The notes beneath the pieces are model-generated. The model was given only the letters and a program-made list of their open reading frames with translations. It searched no databases and had not been told where the DNA came from. A program made the position numbers and the translations under genes. A stretch of DNA of 32,443 nucleotides from a virus (lineage: Duplodnaviria > Heunggongvirae > Uroviricota > Caudoviricetes), in the IMG/VR virus record IMGVR_UViG_2541047794_000003. One strand, given 5' to 3'. Shown one piece after another: positions 4,373-17,759 of the stretch (position 1 is the stretch's first letter; the number at the start of each line of letters is the position of its first letter).

Positions 4373-4930
4373 TCAACTATGAATTTTTAGCAATTGCTCC
4401 ACAGTCATATTTTTAATTGCGCTCCGGTTTACAAGAGTCCATCCTTGTTTCTCCAGATAAAACCGGAAGGTATCCAGGGTGCAGACCATTGCGCCGTCAG
4501 GAACGGTTTCAGTGAATTTGATATTGCCGTGTTCGTCGAGACGGATAACCAGGGTGCGTCCGTCCCCGTGAATCATTTTGTCGGGAGACGGGGCGTTATT
4601 CTGGCGCAGTTCAGCTTCCATGCGGTCGAACTCAGCAATGTATGCCTCTTTAAATGCAGCGGCTTTTTTGCCAGTGAAGCCCATCACCAGGAAAACGAAG
4701 CCGTTTTTGGTGATTTGGTACATTGGGAGTTTGCGCCCGGTTGAGTCGGTGTATTCGCTCGACACAAAATTGTGCTCAGTGAATTTTGCTGAACAGTCCA
4801 GATTGCGAATTTTATCCAACACTCGTTCGTGGCGTTTGCCAAAGAACTCGGCGATCGCAACAGACGTAGTGACAGCGCGACCATTTTCGATGGTTACGTC
4901 AGGGTGAGAAAGGGTAAGGATAGTAGCCAT
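4373..4930 (-). CDS. Phage regulatory protein, Rha family (antirepressor-like)
   Basis: Motif TTSVAIAEFFGKRHERVLDKIRNL characteristic of Rha N-terminal domain; start placed at internal ATG 4928-4930 with GGAGG SD; the longer track ORF to 5227 would run through a terminator. Confidence 0.7.
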   Translation of the reverse strand: MATILTLSHPDVTIENGRAVTTSVAIAEFFGKRHERVLDKIRNLDCSAKFTEHNFVSSEYTDSTGRKLPMYQITKNGFVFLVMGFTGKKAAAFKEAYIAEFDRMEAELRQNNAPSPDKMIHGDGRTLVIRLDEHGNIKFTETVPDGAMVCTLDTFRFYLEKQGWTLVNRSAIKNMTVEQLLKIHS

Positions 4931-5097
4931 GATGGCAGCCTCCGCGATGAATTTGATTAACTCACCACCGAGGTTTTCCACGACCATAAGGGTGGTGAGA
5001 CGTACAGGGGTGGAAATACCGGTCATCACGGAACCCGGCCAGCCTTGCGGCTGCCCTGCACGCCCCACCATAATGCGAATGTGGCTGTGCTTAACGC

Positions 5098-5122
5098 ATA
5101 AAAAAACCGCCTGAGCGCGGTT
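5098..5122 (-). terminator. Rho-independent terminator (minus strand) in early-left operon
   Basis: Perfect 6-bp stem AACCGC/GCGGTT with 6-nt loop followed (on minus strand) by a U-run; lies upstream of the Rha gene. Confidence 0.5.
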
Positions 5123-5799
5123 ATGCGCCGTGAATGATTTCGGGTTTCCACGCCCGGCACCCGTTTTATGAGGTGCAGGTGCACTATAATTCCACCCGTT
5201 CTGGTTTTCAATAGCTACATTCAACATTTTCTCTCACCTTTTCAGCGGAGTGAACTTTGTGATGCAGTGCCTGGTGCCTCCAGGTGACGTTAACCAGTTA
5301 ACAATTAACGCCGGATACAGAGAATCCACCCATAACACTGTTTTTGGTTTTAACTGTTCCGCGTGCGCTGAGCCGCATTCACCGCATCACAAAATTCACT
5401 TTAAAAAGGGCGGCAGAGCAGTCACGGAGTAAAACTGATACCGCCAAACGTCACCAGAAAATTGATAACAGAGGGCGTTGCAGCGGGGTTGTCACTTAAG
5501 CGTATGGTCAACCTGACAACCCGGTGTCCTCAACGGGGGAAGGAATAACCCCGCCATACTTACCGCCGCGCCATTTCGCGGATTGCCACAACCGGAAGCG
5601 CACGGTCGACGAAAATTTAACGACAGGCTATCTATGAACCAGCTACCTCGCCGTGCGCTTTCGCGTTATGGTCTGACTTTTCAGGGAAATATCCTTTCAG
5701 TAAACTGTCAGTGCCGGATTCTTATCCGTGTCCGGCGCACGACCACACGCTGTCACGAGAGGTCTCCATTCTCAACCAGTAACCTCAATGGAGGATAAA

Positions 5800-5994: not shown

Positions 5995-6333
5995 CATTTT
6001 TTTACGGCGTTCATATTCGTTAATATTTATGAAGCCTGTTGCCAGAAGCAGTTCGTTAATTTCATGGTTGTTTGGCTGTTTCTGGCTCTTTGAACTGGGA
6101 TCTTCCACTTCTTTTTCTGCAAATTGTTTTGCTGTATCCTCTGTGCCATGGATATTTAAAGCTGTATCTGAAAACAGCCCAGTAAACGCATCGCGCACAT
6201 TACGAGCCATATTATCAGTGTCTTTTTTTGTTACCGATTCCAATTCAAGTTCGTTCAGACGATGACGAAGTGTGTGTGCTGCAATCTCCTGGATTGAAGG
6301 AGGTAAATCTTTAAATTCCATCGTCAACCTCAT
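5983..6333 (-). CDS. Hypothetical acidic protein
   Basis: 116-aa ORF; start codon 6331-6333 overlaps stop of upstream gene (TGATG coupling); an alternative start 12 nt downstream has a GAGGT SD. Confidence 0.45.
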   Translation of the reverse strand: MRLTMEFKDLPPSIQEIAAHTLRHRLNELELESVTKKDTDNMARNVRDAFTGLFSDTALNIHGTEDTAKQFAEKEVEDPSSKSQKQPNNHEINELLLATGFININEYERRKKMLSD

Positions 6334-6485
6334 CAGTCAGTGTTTCTGGCTAACCAGCGACGCGCGCCAGCTGCGGTTTTAAACGTTTTGCTTTTGGTAT
6401 ACGTCATCGCGGTGAACGTACCGTCCTGGTTTGGGAACACACCACATACCAGAGATTCGCTGTTGCCAAGATCGATAGTATCCAT
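6333..6485 (-). CDS. Small protein resembling Rac prophage YdaF (DUF1391-like), first gene of leftward operon
   Basis: 50-aa reading frame MDTIDLGN...ARRWLARNTD from internal ATG (6483-6485) with GAGGT SD; sequence resemblance to YdaF is from memory; longer track ORF to 6566 lacks an SD. Confidence 0.5.
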   Translation of the reverse strand: MDTIDLGNSESLVCGVFPNQDGTFTAMTYTKSKTFKTAAGARRWLARNTD

Positions 6486-6671
6486 GCTGACCTCATTTCC
6501 CCTTAACGCCGGGGTAGCGGAACAAAAACCTGCTGCATAGTTATTAAAGTTGAACCCTGCCGTCATGTTCTTACGCCTCGGGCTGGCTACTTAACCCCTG
6601 ACCACTGCCTGGTAACTCGAAGTATTGCCCTGCATTCTGTGGGGCGGGGTGGGTTGGTATGAAAAGAAGGA

Positions 6672-6708
6672 TACCCATAGGTATTTAAAAAGTAAATACC
6701 CATGGGTA
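6672..6708. promoter_or_regulatory. OL-like operator pair: two TACC-N4-GGTA palindromes overlapping a leftward promoter
   Basis: tacccataggta (6672-6683) and perfect palindrome tacccatgggta (6697-6708), 25 bp centre to centre, just downstream of the repressor gene stop. Confidence 0.55.
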
Positions 6709-6749
6709 AATTTTGCGGTGTCTTAACTGGTGACTAGTTGTTTGGTGAG

Positions 6750-7169
6750 CTATGATGCGTTTTGTGCTTTCTTTTTACGGATTTCTTCGTAGATCATATT
6801 GTAATACTGTTTTTTCTCTTCAAGAGTTTTTAATAATTTATCCGCTTCACTTTCTGGCAGTTCGTCTAAGAGATCTAAAAAAATACGTTGTCGTGGCGTT
6901 AGAACCCTTGTTTCATAACTGGAGGCTGTGTTCGTTGATGATGAAACGATACCATCCATCCATCCCCGGGGTAACCCAAAGGACTCTTCGATAATCTCCA
7001 CCATATCATCAGCGATCCGTTTTTTTCCCTTTTTCCCCTCTGGGTACAACATTCTTGATACATAAGAAGGCTCGCGCCCGATCTTTCTGGCCACGTTAAC
7101 CGCTTTACCATCGCATTTCTCATCACGAATTTTGATGAGTTGCTGTCGTCTAAATTCATATTTGTCCAT
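6750..7169 (-). CDS. Prophage repressor (CI analogue), HTH_XRE type without S24 peptidase domain (RacR-like)
   Basis: 139-aa ORF with HTH segment AVNVARKIGREPSYVSRM; divergent from a Cro-like gene; flanked by operator palindromes on both sides. Confidence 0.75.
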   Translation of the reverse strand: MDKYEFRRQQLIKIRDEKCDGKAVNVARKIGREPSYVSRMLYPEGKKGKKRIADDMVEIIEESFGLPRGWMDGIVSSSTNTASSYETRVLTPRQRIFLDLLDELPESEADKLLKTLEEKKQYYNMIYEEIRKKKAQNAS

Positions 7170-7189
7170 AGGTAAATAATAGATGCGAT

Positions 7190-7245
7190 TACCGCAAGGT
7201 AAACAACCTGTGGGTATTGACTTTTGTTTACCTGTGGGTATTCTT
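7190..7245. promoter_or_regulatory. OR-like operator region with three TACC-N4-GGTA sites overlapping rightward promoter
   Basis: taccgcaaggta (7190-7201), aacctgtgggta (7205-7216), tacctgtgggta (7229-7240); -35 TTGACT at 7217-7222 and -10-like TATTCT at 7239-7244 between sites. Confidence 0.55.
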
Positions 7246-7269
7246 TGCTGTGTTTACTAAGGAGTAGCT

Positions 7270-7551
7270 ATGGAAGAATTAAGAATATTTCTCAATTCTC
7301 TTTCGTCAGATGAACAGCGTATGTTTGCATGCGAGTGTGGTACCAGCATCGGTTATCTAAGAAAGGCATTGAGTAAAGGTCAAGTGTTAGGGGCATCGTT
7401 ATGTGTCCTTATTGAGCGAGCCAGTAATGGTGAAGTTACACGTCAGCAACTAAGGCCTTTTGATTGGATGAATATTTGGCCCGAGCTGGAAGATACCAAA
7501 ACGTTAACACAACCACTTTCTAGGAGCTTGATTCATGAAAATCAAGCATGA
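7270..7551 (+). CDS. ydaS: Cro-like HTH regulator of the YdaS family
   Basis: 93-aa ORF, AGGAG SD, HTH TSIGYLRKALSKGQ; position and size match Rac YdaS; 17-bp overlap with next gene. Confidence 0.7.
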   Translation: MEELRIFLNSLSSDEQRMFACECGTSIGYLRKALSKGQVLGASLCVLIERASNGEVTRQQLRPFDWMNIWPELEDTKTLTQPLSRSLIHENQA

Positions 7552-7960
7552 ACACATCCGCATGGCGATGAATGCCTGGGCGCGTCCTGATGGCGAAAAA
7601 GTTCCAGCAGCTGGAATAACCCAGGCTTATTTTGAGTTGGGTATGACGTTCCCAGAACTGTATGACGACAGCCATCCGGAAGCCCTGGCTCGCAATACCC
7701 AGAAAATTTTCCGCTGGGTAGAGAAAGACACCCCTGATGCTGTTGAAAAAATGCAGGCTCTGTTACCGGCGATCGAAAAGGCGATGCCGCCTTTGCTGGT
7801 GGCCCGTATGCGCAGCCACAGTTCTGAATATTACCGTGAGATCGTCGAACGGAGGGATCGGCTGGTGAAGGATGTCGATGATTTTGTTGCGTCAGCGGTT
7901 GTTTTGTATGACCAGATGAATCGCGGCGGCCCGGCAGGGAATGCTGTGGTGATGCACTAA
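7535..7960 (+). CDS. ydaT: YdaT-like protein (CII-position gene of Rac-type immunity region)
   Basis: 141-aa ORF starting MKIKHEHI..., immediately downstream of and overlapping ydaS-like gene. Confidence 0.65.
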   Translation: MKIKHEHIRMAMNAWARPDGEKVPAAGITQAYFELGMTFPELYDDSHPEALARNTQKIFRWVEKDTPDAVEKMQALLPAIEKAMPPLLVARMRSHSSEYYREIVERRDRLVKDVDDFVASAVVLYDQMNRGGPAGNAVVMH

Positions 7961-11084: not shown

Positions 11085-11771
11085 ATGACCCCAATAAAAA
11101 TATTTATGACTATTGCTGATTTCAAACGGCCTAAATTGGAGCTCCCAAACGGGGCAAACAAACTACTACTGCACTCTTGCTGTGCTCCATGTTCCGGTGA
11201 AGTGATGGAGGCGCTTCAGGCCTCGGGAATCGACTACACCATCTTTTTCTACAACCCGAACATTCATCCTCAGAAAGAGTATTTAATTCGTAAGGATGAA
11301 AATATTCGCTTTGCTGAACAACACGGCGTGCCGTTTATCGATGCTGATTACGACACCGACAACTGGTTTGAACGTGCCAAAGGAATGGAATGGGAGCCTG
11401 AGAGGGGGATCCGTTGTACCATGTGTTTTGACATGCGTTTTGAGCGGACAGCGTTGTACGCTGCTGAAAATGGTTTCAGTGTGATCAGCAGTTCACTGGG
11501 CATTTCACGCTGGAAAAATATGCAGCAGGTTAACGAGTGTGGGCGGCGAGCTGTTGCGCATTATCCGGGTATGGTGTACTGGGATTATAACTGGCGCAAG
11601 CAGGGCGGCTCGTCCCGTATGATTGAAATCAGCAAGCGCGAAAAATTCTATCAGCAGGAATATTGTGGCTGTGTGTATTCTCTGCGCGATACCAATCTAC
11701 ACCGCAAATCTCAGGGACGCCCTCTTATCAAAATTGGCCAACTCCACTACGGAAAAGAAGAGAAGGAGTGA
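11085..11771 (+). CDS. queH: DUF208-family protein, likely epoxyqueuosine reductase QueH-like
   Basis: 228-aa ORF with [11 protein letters not shown] motif and additional conserved Cys (CTMC, CGC) typical of DUF208/QueH. Confidence 0.55.
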
Positions 11772-11879
11772 TTTTATGGATCACCTTTCTGATTGATTTC
11801 ATATTGGCGAGGTGACGTGAGTTAAGTAGAATGGCTGCGGGTGCTTGAGGCTATCTGTCTCAGGCATGAACACTGAAAG

Positions 11880-11960
11880 GCAGATAGAGAAAAGCCCCAG
11901 TTAACATTTCGCGTCCTGCAAGACGCTTAACATTAATCTGAGGCCCAATCTATGTCTCAC
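11880..11960 (-). ncRNA. Candidate Sok-like antisense RNA of the hok locus (approximate bounds)
   Basis: Minus-strand region complementary to hok leader/mok start; contains GGGGCU hairpin element analogous to Sok 3' end; candidate promoter TTGCCT-N17-TAACCT on minus strand. Confidence 0.35.
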
Positions 11961-12008
11961 AAATGTAGGTTAGCCTCTTACGTGCCGAAAGGCAAGGGGA
12001 AGCAGGCT

Positions 12009-12164
12009 ATGAAGCAGCAAAAGGCGATGTTAATCGCCCTGATCGTCATCTGTTTAACCGTCATAGTGACGGCACTGGTAACGAGGAAAGACCTCTGCGA
12101 GGTACGACTCCGAACCGGCCAGACGGAGGTCGCTGTCTTCACAGCTTACGAACCTGAGGAGTAA
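12009..12164 (+). CDS. hok: Hok/Gef-family type I toxin (small membrane peptide)
   Basis: 51-aa ORF MKQQKAMLIALIVICLTVIVTALVTRKDLCEVRLRTGQTEVAVFTAYEPEE matching Hok family pattern; leader has tac/ucb-like elements; in-frame upstream ATG at 11952 (mok-like). Confidence 0.85.
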   Translation: MKQQKAMLIALIVICLTVIVTALVTRKDLCEVRLRTGQTEVAVFTAYEPEE

Positions 12165-16533: not shown

Positions 16534-16609
16534 GGCCCTTTAGCTCAGTGGTGAGAGCGAGCGACTCATAATCGCCAGGTCGCTGGTTCAAATCCAGCAA
16601 GGGCCACCA
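16534..16609 (+). tRNA. ileZ: tRNA-Ile (anticodon CAT, lysidine type; ileZ-like)
   Basis: 76-nt cloverleaf GGCCCTT...AAGGGCC-A-CCA; anticodon loop CTCATAA; near-identical architecture to E. coli tRNA-Ile2. Confidence 0.8.
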
Positions 16610-16616
16610 TCACATA

Positions 16617-16693
16617 CCGCCATTAGCTCATCAGGAAAGAGCGCCAGCCTTCGAAGCTGGTTGCGCGGAGTTCGGGTCCCCGAAGGCGGTCCA
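16617..16693 (+). tRNA. tRNA-Arg (anticodon TCG as read), atypical
   Basis: Cloverleaf with anticodon stem CCAGC/GCTGG and loop CTTCGAA; one mismatch in acceptor stem (A6:A67) and one in T-stem, T-loop TTCGGGT; ends CCA. Confidence 0.55.
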
Positions 16694-16706
16694 TTATCTG
16701 TATCCT

Positions 16707-16783
16707 GCGTTGTTAGCTCAGCCGGACAGAGCAATTGCCTTCTAAGCAATCGGTCACTGGTTCGAATCCAGTACAACGCGCCA
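16707..16783 (+). tRNA. argO: tRNA-Arg (anticodon TCT, reads AGA)
   Basis: Perfect acceptor stem GCGTTGT/ACAACGC, anticodon loop CTTCTAA, T-loop TTCGAAT, discriminator G, CCA. Confidence 0.8.
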
Positions 16784-16829: not shown

Positions 16830-17045
16830 CTCACAATTTAGGCGGTTGACTGTTGTCTGGTTTGCGGGGAGTTTGTTAAAAGAAACTGGCATGGTGAATC
16901 CCCCTGTGCGGAGGGGCAATCAGCGAGTAGGTATATGGGATAATCGCGGATTCAGGTGCTGGTACTGAATTCACCGGGAGGCACCCGGCACCATGCAATG
17001 GCACATAGCGCCACTCTCCAGCCCCTCTCCGGAGGGGCTTTTCTG
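16830..17045 (+). repeat. Module A of tandem structured non-coding element (conserved arms GCATGGTG.../...CACCATGC, internal hairpins, terminator)
   Basis: CTCACAATT + TTGACT motif, conserved arm gcatggtgaatccccctgtgcggaggggc (16889-), arm ctgaattcaccgggaggcacccggcaccatgc (-16996), terminator CCCCTC tccg GAGGGG + T-run (17022-17045). Confidence 0.5.
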
Positions 17046-17297
17046 TGCCGGATACATCACAGTTTCTGGAACCTTAGGTACTACAGTATCAGTCAGGGTG
17101 CTATATTTTCAGATGTGATGAAAGCCTGTCAGCAGGCAGGGCGTATCGGAAATGACCCAGTAGAGAAAACGTTGACTCAGATACCGGTGCTGAGTTACCG
17201 GGAAACCGGCATCACATGACCGCTATCCTTCCAGGCCCATCCGCTCCGGTGGGCCTTTTTACTGCAGAAAACAGGTTCCCCGTTAAATGCTATGTTG

Positions 17298-17532
17298 CTC
17301 ACAATTCAGTAAGTTGACAGTTGCCTGTCAGACTGGGCATTTGTTAAAAAAATTTCGCATGGTGAATCCCCCTGAGCGGAGGGGCGACTGGTGACGGTAT
17401 AATCTCTGATTATCAAAACGAGAATGACGCGGGTTTAGTGGCACCGGGCTGAACTCACCGGGAGGCACCCGGCACCATGTGCATGATGATACAGATACGC
17501 GGCTTTAGCCCCTCTCCGGAGGGGTTTTCTTG
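17298..17532 (+). repeat. Module B, second copy of the same structured element with divergent core
   Basis: Same conserved arms (17357-17479) and same terminator (17507-17532); central ~60 nt unrelated to module A; preceded by terminator GGCCCA...TGGGCC+TTTTT (17234-17261). Confidence 0.5.
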
Positions 17533-17759
17533 TGGGCAAAAAAAGCCCGCGCTGGGAGACGCGGGCGGCAAGGAATAAACAATAAAACGTGAAGTAATAT
17601 TTCAGCTGGCGAATAATACCCCATAGTAATCACTCTGCGCAACTGCGCGGTCTTTTTCGAATTGCGGGCTGTCGTCTCTCTTCTGCCATTGTCCTGTAAC
17701 TTCCGGACTTCAGCCCGCTCCTTATTTTACTCACAATATTATCCCGGCCGGGAGGATTC

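What the first reader, a model, noticed from the sequence alone, without database searches (positions are those of the whole stretch)
6640..7269. Rac-type immunity switch with a TACC-N4-GGTA operator family
The repressor is a short HTH protein lacking the LexA-like peptidase domain, so it should not be RecA-cleavable. It is paired with YdaS/YdaT-like genes rather than lambda cro/cII. Five 12-bp palindromic sites sharing TACC-N4-GGTA flank the repressor gene (two at OL, three at OR) and overlap the predicted -35/-10 elements of the divergent promoters. The operator consensus is read directly from the sequence.
Basis: partly seen in the sequence, partly recalled or inferred. Interest (0 to 1): 0.5.

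Follow-up and report, generated by a model that had tools for sequence, protein, structure and literature searches.

The report
Prophage immunity switch with TACC-N4-GGTA operators
This is the on/off control region of a lambda-like prophage found in about 15% of complete E. coli genomes: its five repressor-binding sites are real and conserved, but it follows the familiar lambda design, with a repressor assembled from two known kinds of repressor that lacks the self-cleaving domain.

Summary
TACC-N4-GGTA occurs exactly four times in 32 kb (0.14 expected). All four copies, plus one one-mismatch copy, flank the 139-aa repressor gene. Two lie at OL and three at OR, overlapping PL, PR and a PRM that would give a leaderless repressor mRNA.

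Comparative evidence is strong. In 22 related loci from about a dozen genera and two phages (mEp043, CharmingMan), the same palindrome sits at the same offsets from the repressor ATG (-72, -47, -32). A pair spaced 25-26 bp lies downstream. The sites track the repressor's N-terminal domain, not the backbone.

The "Rac-type" label is only partly right. The repressor is unrelated to RacR, and the RacR operators differ. It is a chimera:
- a DicA-type two-helix C-terminal domain.

The "YdaS-like" gene is 73% identical to mEp043 cro. The YdaT homologue is genuine and has an exact copy of the published YdaT site.

Induction is probably through an antirepressor. The Rha gene sits behind isrK-like and C4-like RNAs, as in Gifsy-1 and P1, but this link is inferred.

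Verdict: an ordinary lambdoid switch with an apparently undescribed operator specificity. Modest interest.

The parts
6672..6683 (.). OL1, TACCCATAGGTA. It overlaps the spacer and the -10 of the leftward promoter PL.
   Evidence: Exact match. A downstream pair 25-26 bp apart is conserved in 20 of 23 loci.
6697..6708 (.). OL2, TACCCATGGGTA. It abuts the PL -35 hexamer.
   Evidence: The OL and OR promoter-operator modules are extended inverted copies of each other (I1 and I3).
6668..6696 (-). Putative PL: TTTACT (6696-6691), 17-nt spacer, TATCCT (6673-6668).
   Evidence: Read from the sequence. It matches 8 of 12 consensus positions. It has the same geometry as PR, and as TAGACA-17-TATATT read by eye at the mEp043 OL. 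Inferred.
6750..7169 (-). Repressor gene, 139 aa. It has an N-terminal HTH domain (residues 1-72), a disordered linker (77-87) and a DicA-type two-helix C-terminal domain (92-138).
7176..7203 (-). PRM-like promoter: TTTACC-16-TATTAT. The ATG lies 6 nt after the -10 hexamer, so the mRNA would be leaderless. There is no Shine-Dalgarno sequence.
   Evidence: The same layout is seen in mEp043 and most related loci.
7190..7201 (.). OR3, TACCGCAAGGTA. It overlaps the PRM -35 and is the predicted autorepression site.
   Evidence: It lies at -32 from the ATG; related loci have it at -32/-33.
7205..7216 (.). OR2, AACCTGTGGGTA (TACCCACAGGTT on the repressor strand). It has a weak half-site and lies between the two -35 hexamers, centred about -41.5 from the PRM start.
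   Evidence: TACC-N4-GGTT is conserved at -47/-48.
7229..7240 (.). OR1, TACCTGTGGGTA. It overlaps the PR spacer and -10.
   Evidence: It lies at -71; related loci have it at -72/-73.
7217..7244 (+). PR-like promoter: TTGACT-16-TATTCT. AAGGAG at 7259-7264 precedes the cro ATG at 7270.
   Evidence: The conserved TCAATACC in related loci corresponds to the PR -35 abutting OR2.
7270..7551 (+).
   Evidence: It is 73% identical to mEp043 Cro. It matches PHROG 35. Its Pfam YdaS match is below the cutoff. A homologue lies divergently upstream in 15 of 22 related loci.
7528..7545 (.). TTGATTCATGAAAATCAA, an exact copy of the published YdaT recognition repeat TTGATT-N6-AATCAA. It sits at the cro end and the ydaT start, the position equivalent to PRE.
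   Evidence: It is the only exact match in the window. The site and its position were footprinted in CP-933P (PMC9986795).
7535..7960 (+). YdaT-like gene, 141 aa, a CII analogue.
   Evidence: Pfam YdaT_toxin scores above its cutoff. It is 31% identical to Rac YdaT and 86.5% identical to its Tritos homologue.
4373..5211 (-). Candidate antirepressor module. It comprises a promoter TTGAAA-17-TATAGT (5211-5183), an isrK-like sRNA (5176-5100) with a terminator, a C4-like RNA (5075-4988), and a Rha-domain ORF probably starting at ATG 4930.
   Evidence: together with the Gifsy-1 isrK-orf45-anrP precedent (PMC4825925). Its link to this repressor is inferred.

Best explanation
The region is a lambda-style bistable immunity switch of an apparently complete lambdoid prophage inserted next to ompW.

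Proposed mechanism:
- The 139-aa repressor, presumably a dimer, binds 12-bp TACC-YRYR-GGTA palindromes through its N-terminal helix-turn-helix (recognition helix REPSYVSRMLY).
- Pairs of sites 24-25 bp apart (OR1+OR2, OL1+OL2) cover the -10 and flank the -35 of PR and PL. This shuts off the cro/ydaT/replication operon and the leftward operon.
- OR2, centred about -41.5 from the PRM start, is placed to stimulate the leaderless repressor transcript.
- OR3 overlaps the PRM -35 and gives autorepression at high repressor levels.
- The Cro-like protein uses the same sites in the opposite sense.
- The YdaT homologue binds TTGATT-N6-AATCAA at the cro/ydaT junction to establish repressor synthesis.

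The C-terminal domain is a DicA-type helical module, not an S24 peptidase. RecA-stimulated self-cleavage is therefore not available, and induction needs an antirepressor or spontaneous switch flipping. The in-prophage antirepressor candidate is the Rha-domain protein that sits behind the isrK-like and C4-like RNAs.

Shown here: the sites, their positions, their conservation, their co-inheritance with the N-terminal domain, and the domain architecture. Inferred: binding itself, cooperativity, PRM activation, and the induction route.
For: - Site statistics: 4 exact sites against 0.14 expected, all flanking the repressor gene.
- Phylogenetic footprint: across 23 loci there are 41 exact sites in 2,300 bp of the 100-bp upstream zones, against 2 in 76,722 bp of coding and far-upstream DNA. 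Offsets are fixed at -72/-47/-32, and an OL pair occurs in 20 of 23 loci.
- The sites follow the N-terminal domain. Tritos shares the C-terminal domain, ydaT and the flanks but has a different N-terminal domain, and it has no such sites. The Klebsiella, Izhakiella and Orbus loci lack the Cro homologue yet keep the sites.
- The recognition helix is nearly invariant across the family.
- Promoters are positioned as described, and the leaderless PRM layout is conserved.
- The AF2 model has pLDDT 84, with an HTH at residues 23-40 and two C-terminal helices.
- The C-terminal domain matches DicA: NCBIfam E=1.9e-5, BLASTP E=2e-7, hhalign 97% probability with E=3e-11.
- Homologues of the N-terminal domain mostly carry PF00717 and show AG and GDSM motifs; this protein does not.
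- An exact YdaT site is present at the expected position.
- Precedents for non-cleavable short repressors relieved by antirepressors: Gifsy (PMC3121763) and DicA/Rem (PMC10448788).
- The isrK/C4/Rha module lies in the left arm. In Gifsy-1, ectopic expression of the predicted antirepressor AnrP, encoded in the isrK-orf45-anrP locus, raised antQ transcript levels (PMC4825925).
Against: - No binding or expression data exist for this protein or for any member of its N-terminal domain family that I could find.
- PL matches the consensus poorly (8 of 12).
- OR2 and OR3 are only 15 bp apart centre to centre, unlike lambda, so lambda-style occupancy rules may not carry over.
- No Rem homologue and no convincing LexA box is present in the window.
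- The Rha gene lies in the arm that the repressor itself should silence. Its promoter carries no TACC site, and its target is unknown.
- The oligomeric state and the function of the C-terminal domain were not modelled.
Confidence: 0.8

Rival explanations
1. The switch is a member of the Rac family, with a RacR-type repressor and YdaS/YdaT.
For: - There is synteny with Rac: DUF1391/ydaF-like and ydaG-like genes to the left, and a ydaT homologue followed by replication genes to the right.
- DNA at 6340-6661 is 84-87% identical to Rac, and the ydaT start is 96.7% identical to Rac over 30 bp.
- YdaT matches Pfam above its cutoff.
Against: - The repressor has no similarity to RacR.
- RacR operators are TAGGC-n3-GCCTA (PMC9638921), not TACC-N4-GGTA.
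- The cro-like gene is 73% identical to mEp043 cro and only marginally YdaS-like.
- The C-terminal domain is DicA-type, as in Qin, not Rac-type.
Confidence: 0.08
2. The two left-hand palindromes act mainly as an intrinsic terminator for the repressor transcript rather than as operators. On the minus strand they form one 16-bp hairpin followed by a U-rich run.
For: - The terminator scan picks up the hairpin at 6708-6672 with the tail TCCTTCTTTT.
- As RNA it folds at -22.2 kcal/mol, z = -5.6.
- No other terminator is evident between the repressor stop codon (6750) and the PL region.
Against: - Two similar palindromes placed side by side form such a hairpin automatically.
- In related loci the same pair lies 70 to 1,860 bp beyond the repressor stop. 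In mEp043 it lies downstream of a separate terminator-like GC hairpin with a T run, read by eye. The central N4 often does not match between the two sites, so the hairpin is not what is conserved.
- The pair has the same geometry relative to a promoter as OR1/OR2.
- A dual role remains possible.
Confidence: 0.1
3. The prophage is still SOS-inducible in the usual Gifsy way. A LexA-controlled antirepressor encoded elsewhere (outside the window or on another prophage) inactivates the repressor, and the Rha protein is an unrelated regulator.
For: - Gifsy repressors are inactivated by LexA-controlled antirepressors encoded outside the immunity region, including ones from other prophages (PMC3121763).
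- DicA is relieved by Rem, which was found through homology searches seeded with the Gifsy antirepressor GfoA (PMC10448788).
- The C-terminal domain is DicA-type and weakly GtgR-like.
Against: - No Rem homologue and no LexA box better than chance is in the window.
- Nothing is annotated as an antirepressor in the rest of this prophage in strain AR_0017.
- The Rha ORF matches antirepressor PHROGs and sits in an isrK-orf45-anrP-like and P1 immI-like context.
Confidence: 0.25

Closest known systems
Phage lambda cI-OR-cro / OL switch
   Same: - The repressor and cro genes are divergent.
- OR is tripartite and overlaps PR and PRM.
- OR1 and OR2 are about 24 bp apart, and OR2 is centred near -42 of PRM.
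- The repressor mRNA is leaderless.
- A second operator set sits at PL.
- A CII-type activator site lies at the cro/cII junction.
   Different: - The operators are 12 bp (TACC-N4-GGTA) rather than 17 bp.
- OL has two sites, not three.
- OR2 and OR3 are only 15 bp apart.
- OL and OR are about 530 bp apart.
- The repressor has no S24 domain.
- The CII analogue is YdaT.
- No N gene is evident after PL.
Phage mEp043 (and CharmingMan) cI/cro immunity region, and the wider LexA-family CI proteins of Enterobacterales
   Same: - The N-terminal domain is 65% identical, with an identical recognition helix, and Cro is 73% identical.
- The operator consensus, number and offsets are the same at OR and OL.
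   Different: - mEp043 cI is 228 aa and has an S24 peptidase domain with an AG cleavage motif. This repressor has a DicA-type C-terminal domain instead.
- mEp043 has a lambda-type cII and an N gene.
- I found no published operator study for this group.
DicA/DicC of the Qin prophage (and the Tritos CI)
   Same: - It is a short (135-139 aa) non-cleavable repressor with a homologous C-terminal helical domain: hhalign 97% probability, and about 72% identity to Tritos over 50 aa.
- The backbone is the same: DUF1391, DicF, dicB and ydaT in Tritos.
- DicA/DicC behave as a bistable CI/Cro pair, and the antirepressor Rem relieves DicA repression (PMC10448788).
   Different: [quoted passage not shown]
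- There is no Rem homologue in the window.
RacR/YdaS/YdaT (Rac) and PaaR2/YdaS/YdaT (CP-933P)
   Same: - Gene order matches, and there is a YdaT homologue with the TTGATT-N6-AATCAA site.
- RacR's strongest mapped promoter gives a leaderless transcript, as predicted here for PRM (PMC9638921).
- YdaS/YdaT have been shown to act as Cro/CII analogues (PMC8630535, PMC9986795).
   Different: - The repressor is not homologous to RacR. It was not compared with PaaR2.
- The operator sequences differ: TAGGC-n3-GCCTA in Rac and GTTTAGTAA palindromes in CP-933P.
Gifsy-type repressors (GfoR/GtgR) and SPC32H Rep with antirepressors
   Same: - The repressor is small and lacks a cleavage motif.
- The C-terminal domain is weakly similar to that of GtgR.
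- The best Foldseek hit in the PDB is the SPC32H Rep-Ant complex 5d50, a weak match with E about 1e-3.
- An isrK/anrP-like module is present, as in Gifsy-1.
   Different: - No LexA-controlled antirepressor operon was found in the window.
- The similarity to GtgR is marginal.
- The DNA-binding domain belongs to a different family.

Membership tests
Lambdoid CI/Cro immunity switch (functional class) | Divergent repressor and cro genes, separated by multiple copies of one palindromic operator that overlap PR and PRM. | tested here: met
   conserved across 23 loci.
Lambdoid CI/Cro immunity switch (functional class) | A second operator set at a leftward early promoter (OL/PL). | tested here: met
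   The sites at 6672-6708 are confirmed, and the pair is conserved in 20 of 23 loci. The PL hexamers are weak (8 of 12) and read by eye.
Lambdoid CI/Cro immunity switch (functional class) | Repressor and Cro both bind the operators and give bistable expression. | not testable with these tools
   This needs EMSA or footprinting and reporter assays.
Rac-type switch (RacR/YdaS/YdaT) | Repressor homologous to RacR. | tested here: not met
   BLASTP gives no significant alignment.
Rac-type switch (RacR/YdaS/YdaT) | Operators of the (T/A)TAGGC-n3-GCCTA(T/A) type. | tested here: not met
   The operators here are TACC-N4-GGTA. The RacR consensus comes from PMC9638921.
Rac-type switch (RacR/YdaS/YdaT) | YdaS homologue as the first rightward gene. 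| tested here: inconclusive
   Pfam YdaS_toxin scores 25.8 bits against a cutoff of 30. The only alignment to Rac YdaS covers 28 aa at 54% identity. The closest relative is mEp043 Cro.
Rac-type switch (RacR/YdaS/YdaT) | YdaT homologue with its TTGATT-N6-AATCAA site at the ydaS/ydaT junction. | tested here: met
DicA-type short repressors | C-terminal helical domain homologous to DicA residues about 84-131. | tested here: met
   NCBIfam PRK09706 E=1.9e-5 (below the whole-protein cutoff, because only the C-terminal domain matches). BLASTP E=2e-7. hhalign 97.2% probability, E=3e-11.
DicA-type short repressors | DicA-like XRE N-terminal domain and DicA operators. | tested here: not met
   There is no N-terminal alignment to DicA. 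The N-terminal domain matches the mEp043 cI family instead.
DicA-type short repressors | Cognate Rem-type antirepressor in the same prophage. | tested here: not met
   tblastn of Rem against the window gives nothing better than E=0.4.
LexA-like (S24) phage CI repressors | C-terminal Peptidase_S24 domain with an Ala-Gly cleavage site and a Ser/Lys dyad. | tested here: not met
   There is no Pfam or NCBIfam S24 match. The alignment diverges after about residue 75 from homologues that carry PF00717 and the AG and GDSM motifs.
LexA-like (S24) phage CI repressors | N-terminal DNA-binding domain of the mEp043-cI family. | tested here: met
   It is 65% identical over residues 1-86 and 60-82% identical to many S24-bearing proteins.
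Gifsy-type antirepressor-controlled repressors | LexA-controlled antirepressor transcription unit. | tested here: not met
   Within the window there is no LexA box above chance. The rest of the genome was not examined.
Gifsy-type antirepressor-controlled repressors | Repressor homologous to GfoR/GtgR. | tested here: inconclusive
   Only the C-terminal domain aligns: BLASTP E=1e-3, and hhalign 62% probability, E=7.6e-5 over 30 columns.

The most novel reading that the evidence does not exclude
One DNA-binding and operator specificity (TACC-N4-GGTA) circulates in nature attached to two alternative output domains: a self-cleaving S24 peptidase (mEp043 and many Enterobacterales prophages) and a DicA-type helical domain (this prophage, in about 15% of complete E. 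coli genomes). If the two forms cross-recognise each other's operators, this prophage would give its host SOS-proof immunity against SOS-inducible phages of the mEp043 immunity group. It would also mean that operator geometry and pairwise cooperativity are maintained by two unrelated C-terminal domains. That would make a natural experiment separating repressor specificity from induction logic.
Probability: 0.3. Interest if true: 0.55.

Novelty: new member of a known kind. Interest (0 to 1): 0.35.

Why it matters
The result gives a concrete, testable operator map for an immunity type carried by 822 of 5,426 complete E. coli genomes. RefSeq annotates its repressor only as "hypothetical protein", and Pfam does not cover its DNA-binding domain. 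The result also shows that the repressor cannot be inactivated by RecA-stimulated self-cleavage. This matters for predicting which prophages respond to DNA-damaging antibiotics. Finally, it identifies a natural domain-swap pair, S24 against a DicA-type C-terminal domain on one DNA-binding domain. That pair could be used to test how induction mode and cooperativity depend on the C-terminal module. None of this changes the lambda paradigm.

Tried and rejected
- **RacR homology.** Rejected.
- **Truncated S24 repressor (pseudogene).** Rejected. The 139-aa length and the C-terminal domain are conserved in E. coli, Salmonella, Serratia, Yersinia and phage Tritos.
- **LexA boxes.** There is only one exact CTGT-N8-ACAG, inside an ORF and at chance level. 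Nothing lies within 3 mismatches of the 20-bp consensus.
- **Rem-type antirepressor.** Absent from the window. The 90-aa ORF after hokD is not Rem.
- **Sequence search of solved structures.** Only noise, such as ADAR Z-alpha at E about 0.08.
- **Foldseek against the PDB.** Only generic XRE-type HTH hits, led weakly by the SPC32H Rep-Ant complex.
- **Literature.** Searches for the motif, for mEp043 operators and for the RefSeq protein accessions found no prior description. The library is limited to open-access papers.
- **P0010 and P0019.** These apparent divergent homologues are frameshift or alternative-frame products and were ignored.
- **Not run.** A dimer or DNA-complex model, a search with the C-terminal domain alone, and a comparison with PaaR2.
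Full report
**1. The observation**

The pattern TACCNNNNGGTA occurs exactly four times in the 32,443-bp window: at 6672-6683, 6697-6708, 7190-7201 and 7229-7240. Dinucleotide-preserving shuffles give 0.14 on average and never more than one. With one mismatch allowed, a fifth site appears at 7205-7216, AACCTGTGGGTA.

The two left sites lie 42-78 bp beyond the stop codon of a leftward 139-aa ORF, 6750-7169. The three right sites fill the 100-bp gap between that ORF's ATG and the ATG of a rightward 93-aa ORF at 7270.

The promoter scan places a PR-like promoter, TTGACT-16-TATTCT, at 7217-7244 on the plus strand. It places a PRM-like promoter, TTTACC-16-TATTAT, at 7203-7176 on the minus strand. 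The geometry follows from these positions:
- OR1 (7229-7240) covers the PR spacer and -10.
- OR2 (7205-7216) sits between the two -35 hexamers.
- OR3 (7190-7201) overlaps the PRM -35.
- The PRM -10 ends 6 nt before the ATG and no Shine-Dalgarno sequence is present. The repressor mRNA is therefore predicted to be leaderless, as for lambda cI and for RacR's strongest mapped promoter (PMC9638921).

On the minus strand I read a PL candidate by eye: TTTACT (6696-6691), 17 nt, TATCCT (6673-6668). It matches only 8 of 12 consensus positions, below the scan's threshold. OL2 abuts its -35 and OL1 overlaps its -10, exactly as OR2 and OR1 relate to PR. The OL and OR modules are extended inverted copies of each other (I1 and I3).

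**2. Where the window comes from**

It is an E. coli lambdoid prophage inserted beside ompW. It carries int/xis, an exonuclease, dicB, DicF, replication genes, a Q-type antiterminator, lysis genes and lambda-like head and tail genes. The immunity cassette 6655-7522 is present in 822 of 5,426 complete E. coli genomes, mostly at 99% identity or more. RefSeq calls the repressor "hypothetical protein".

**3. Comparative test of the operators**

I ran that test.

The repressor's first 86 residues are 65% identical to cI of phage mEp043, a 228-aa protein. A database search shows that this N-terminal domain is widespread in Enterobacterales. It is mostly fused to Peptidase_S24, giving proteins of 221-242 aa. 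A shorter form of 135-140 aa occurs in E. coli, Salmonella, Serratia and Yersinia.

I analysed 22 related loci together with the window: mEp043, CharmingMan and 20 genome loci. The genome loci come from Yersinia, Arsenophonus, Edwardsiella, Klebsiella, Pantoea, Leclercia, Dryocola, Atlantibacter, Izhakiella, Orbus and others. Anchored on the repressor ATG, they show a fixed layout:
- TACC-N4-GGTA at -72/-73.
- TACC-N4-GGTT at -47/-48, so the weak half-site is itself conserved.
- TACC-N4-GGTA at -32/-33.
- A pair of sites 25-26 bp apart downstream of the repressor gene, in 20 of 23 loci.

The window has -71, -47, -32 and a 25-bp pair. Across the set there are 41 exact sites in 2,300 bp of the 100-bp upstream zones, against 2 in 76,722 bp of coding and far-upstream DNA. 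The pooled consensus is tTACC-YRYR-GGTAw.

Two controls show which component the sites follow:
- Phage Tritos shares the C-terminal domain, the ydaT gene and the flanking DNA with the window, but has a different N-terminal domain. It has no such sites.
- The Klebsiella, Izhakiella and Orbus loci lack a homologue of the Cro-like gene yet keep the sites.

The sites therefore track the repressor's N-terminal domain. Its helix-turn-helix segment REPSYVSRMLYPEGKKGKKRIADDM is almost invariant across the family. This is as strong as computational evidence for an operator assignment gets. It is still not a binding experiment.

**4. What the proteins are**

*Repressor.* It has no Pfam match. It matches PHROG 5736, "transcriptional regulator".

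The AlphaFold model has a mean pLDDT of 84. It shows a four-helix N-terminal domain with the HTH at residues 23-40, a disordered linker at 77-87, and two C-terminal helices at 92-103 and 106-138. Foldseek finds only generic XRE-type HTH proteins. The weak top hit is the non-cleavable Rep of Salmonella phage SPC32H in complex with its antirepressor (5d50, E about 1e-3).

The C-terminal domain is homologous to that of DicA, the Qin prophage repressor. The support is NCBIfam PRK09706 positions 81-131 at E=1.9e-5, BLASTP at 33% identity and E=2e-7, and hhalign at 97% probability and E=3e-11. It is about 72% identical to the Tritos CI C-terminal domain. It is only marginally similar to Gifsy-2 GtgR.

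There is no similarity to RacR.

The S24-bearing homologues show the usual Ala-Gly and GDSM motifs after residue 80. This protein has nothing of the kind, so RecA-stimulated self-cleavage is not expected. This follows from the established mechanism of LexA and CI cleavage. It is an inference here, not a measurement.

*Cro-like protein (93 aa).* It is 73% identical to mEp043 Cro. A homologue lies divergently upstream in 15 of 22 related loci. Its match to Pfam YdaS_toxin is below the curated cutoff (25.8 bits against 30). It aligns with Rac YdaS over only 28 residues.

*YdaT-like protein (141 aa).* It passes Pfam's cutoff, is 31% identical to Rac YdaT and is 86.5% identical to the Tritos homologue.

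The window contains exactly one perfect copy of TTGATT-N6-AATCAA, at 7528-7545 across the cro stop and the ydaT start. This is the sequence footprinted by CP-933P YdaT, and it lies at the position equivalent to that beside PRE in CP-933P (PMC9986795).

*Mosaic structure.* DNA comparison shows the junctions:
- 6342-6654 is 94% identical to Tritos, and 7523-7949 is 84% identical to Tritos.
- The part coding for the C-terminal domain (6751-6866) is 75% identical to Tritos.
- The OL region and the stretch 6867-7522 (N-terminal domain, OR and cro) are foreign to Tritos and related to mEp043.

This is a classic lambdoid immunity cassette exchange, with one junction inside the repressor linker.

**5. 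How it most likely works**

*Inferred from position and analogy.*
- Repressor dimers occupy OR1+OR2 and OL1+OL2, pairs 24-25 bp apart, and block PR and PL.
- OR2 is centred about 41.5 bp upstream of the predicted PRM start. This is the geometry with which lambda CI at OR2 activates PRM.
- OR3 overlaps the PRM -35 and would give negative autoregulation.
- Cro would use the same sites to shut off PRM.
- YdaT would drive establishment transcription of the repressor from a PRE-like promoter.

*Precedents with experimental support.* CP-933P PaaR2/YdaS/YdaT (PMC8630535), RacR (PMC9638921) and DicA/DicC (PMC10448788).

*Open points.* OR2 and OR3 are only 15 bp apart, unlike in lambda. It is also unknown how a small helical C-terminal domain supports the same site geometry that S24-bearing relatives use.

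*Induction.* Short non-cleavable repressors of the Gifsy and DicA kinds are inactivated by antirepressors (PMC3121763; PMC10448788). The window has no Rem homologue and no LexA box above chance.

The window does contain a Rha-domain ORF whose best PHROG matches include antirepressors. It is preceded by three elements:
- a strong promoter, TTGAAA-17-TATAGT;
- an isrK-like sRNA with its terminator;
- a C4-like RNA.

This layout resembles two known systems. One is the Gifsy-1 isrK-orf45-anrP unit. There, IsrK activates translation of AnrP, a predicted antirepressor-like protein, and ectopic anrP expression raises antQ transcript levels (PMC4825925). The other, from my own knowledge, is the P1 c4-icd-ant immI operon. 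The target of this Rha protein is unknown.

**6. Rival readings**

- The two OL palindromes together form a 16-bp RNA hairpin followed by a U-rich tract on the repressor's strand (-22.2 kcal/mol, z = -5.6). It might terminate PRM transcripts. However, such a hairpin follows automatically from two similar palindromes. The conserved feature in related loci is the pair of sites at a promoter, not the hairpin or its distance from the repressor stop. At most this is a secondary role.
- "Rac-type" membership fails on the repressor and on the operators.
- A trans-acting, LexA-controlled antirepressor encoded elsewhere remains a live alternative for induction.

**7. Novelty and verdict**

I found no description of this operator motif, of mEp043's operators or of this protein in the searchable literature. 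The design is nevertheless the textbook lambdoid one. Non-cleavable DicA-type and Gifsy-type repressors, YdaT as a CII analogue, and mosaic immunity cassettes are all known.

I classify it as a new member of a known kind: a new immunity specificity and a chimeric repressor. Interest is about 0.35. The most interesting reading still open is that the same DNA-binding and operator specificity exists in nature with two different induction modules. That would allow SOS-proof cross-immunity against mEp043-group phages.

Noticed in passing
window 4373-5227 (-): The ORF annotated in RefSeq as a 284-aa 'Rha family phage regulatory protein' (Pfam Ash + Rha) spans a strong sigma-70-like promoter (TTGAAA-17-TATAGT, 5211-5183), an isrK-like sRNA with terminator (5176-5100) and a C4-like antisense RNA (5075-4988). 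The N-terminal 'Ash' part is therefore probably not coding. The Rha protein likely starts at ATG 4930 (185 aa). The layout resembles Gifsy-1 isrK-orf45-anrP and P1 c4-icd-ant.
   Followed up: partly
window 7528-7545: There is a perfect TTGATTCATGAAAATCAA across the cro-like stop and the ydaT start, identical to the footprinted CP-933P YdaT operator consensus. The 30 bp at 7529-7558 are 96.7% identical to the start of Rac ydaT.
   Followed up: partly
window 6672-6708 (-): The two OL palindromes fold as one 16-bp RNA hairpin (-22.2 kcal/mol, z = -5.6) followed by UCCUUCUUUU. This is a possible terminator for the repressor transcript.
   Followed up: partly
window 5408-5459 (-); 11839-12014 (+) and 11952-12164 (+): A DicF sRNA lies in the left arm upstream of dicB. 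A sok/hokD type I toxin-antitoxin locus lies in the right arm.
   Followed up: no
window 16534-16780; 16860-17050; 17328-17537: Three tRNA genes (annotated Ile, Arg, Arg in the matching RefSeq record) are followed by two tandem copies of the sRNA family STnc100, downstream of the Q antiterminator.
   Followed up: no
window 11085-11771 (+): A QueH-like epoxyqueuosine reductase gene lies inside the prophage early-right region. It is an unexpected cargo gene.
   Followed up: no
window 6162-6177: CTGTATCTGAAAACAG is the only exact CTGT-N8-ACAG core in the window. It lies inside the ydaG-like ORF and occurs at chance frequency (33 of 100 shuffles have at least one).
   Followed up: yes
L009-L014 (Klebsiella loci), upstream of the repressor: A variant OR keeps the sites at -73 and -33, lacks the middle TACC-N4-GGTT site, and has no homologue of the Cro-like gene. 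It may be a different switch wiring built on the same DNA-binding domain.
   Followed up: no
window 6899-7159 (-), proteins P0010 and P0019: Some database 'homologues' of the repressor begin with the translation of the overlapping -1 frame (MNLDDSNSSKFV...). This indicates frameshifted copies of the repressor gene in some E. coli genomes.
   Followed up: no
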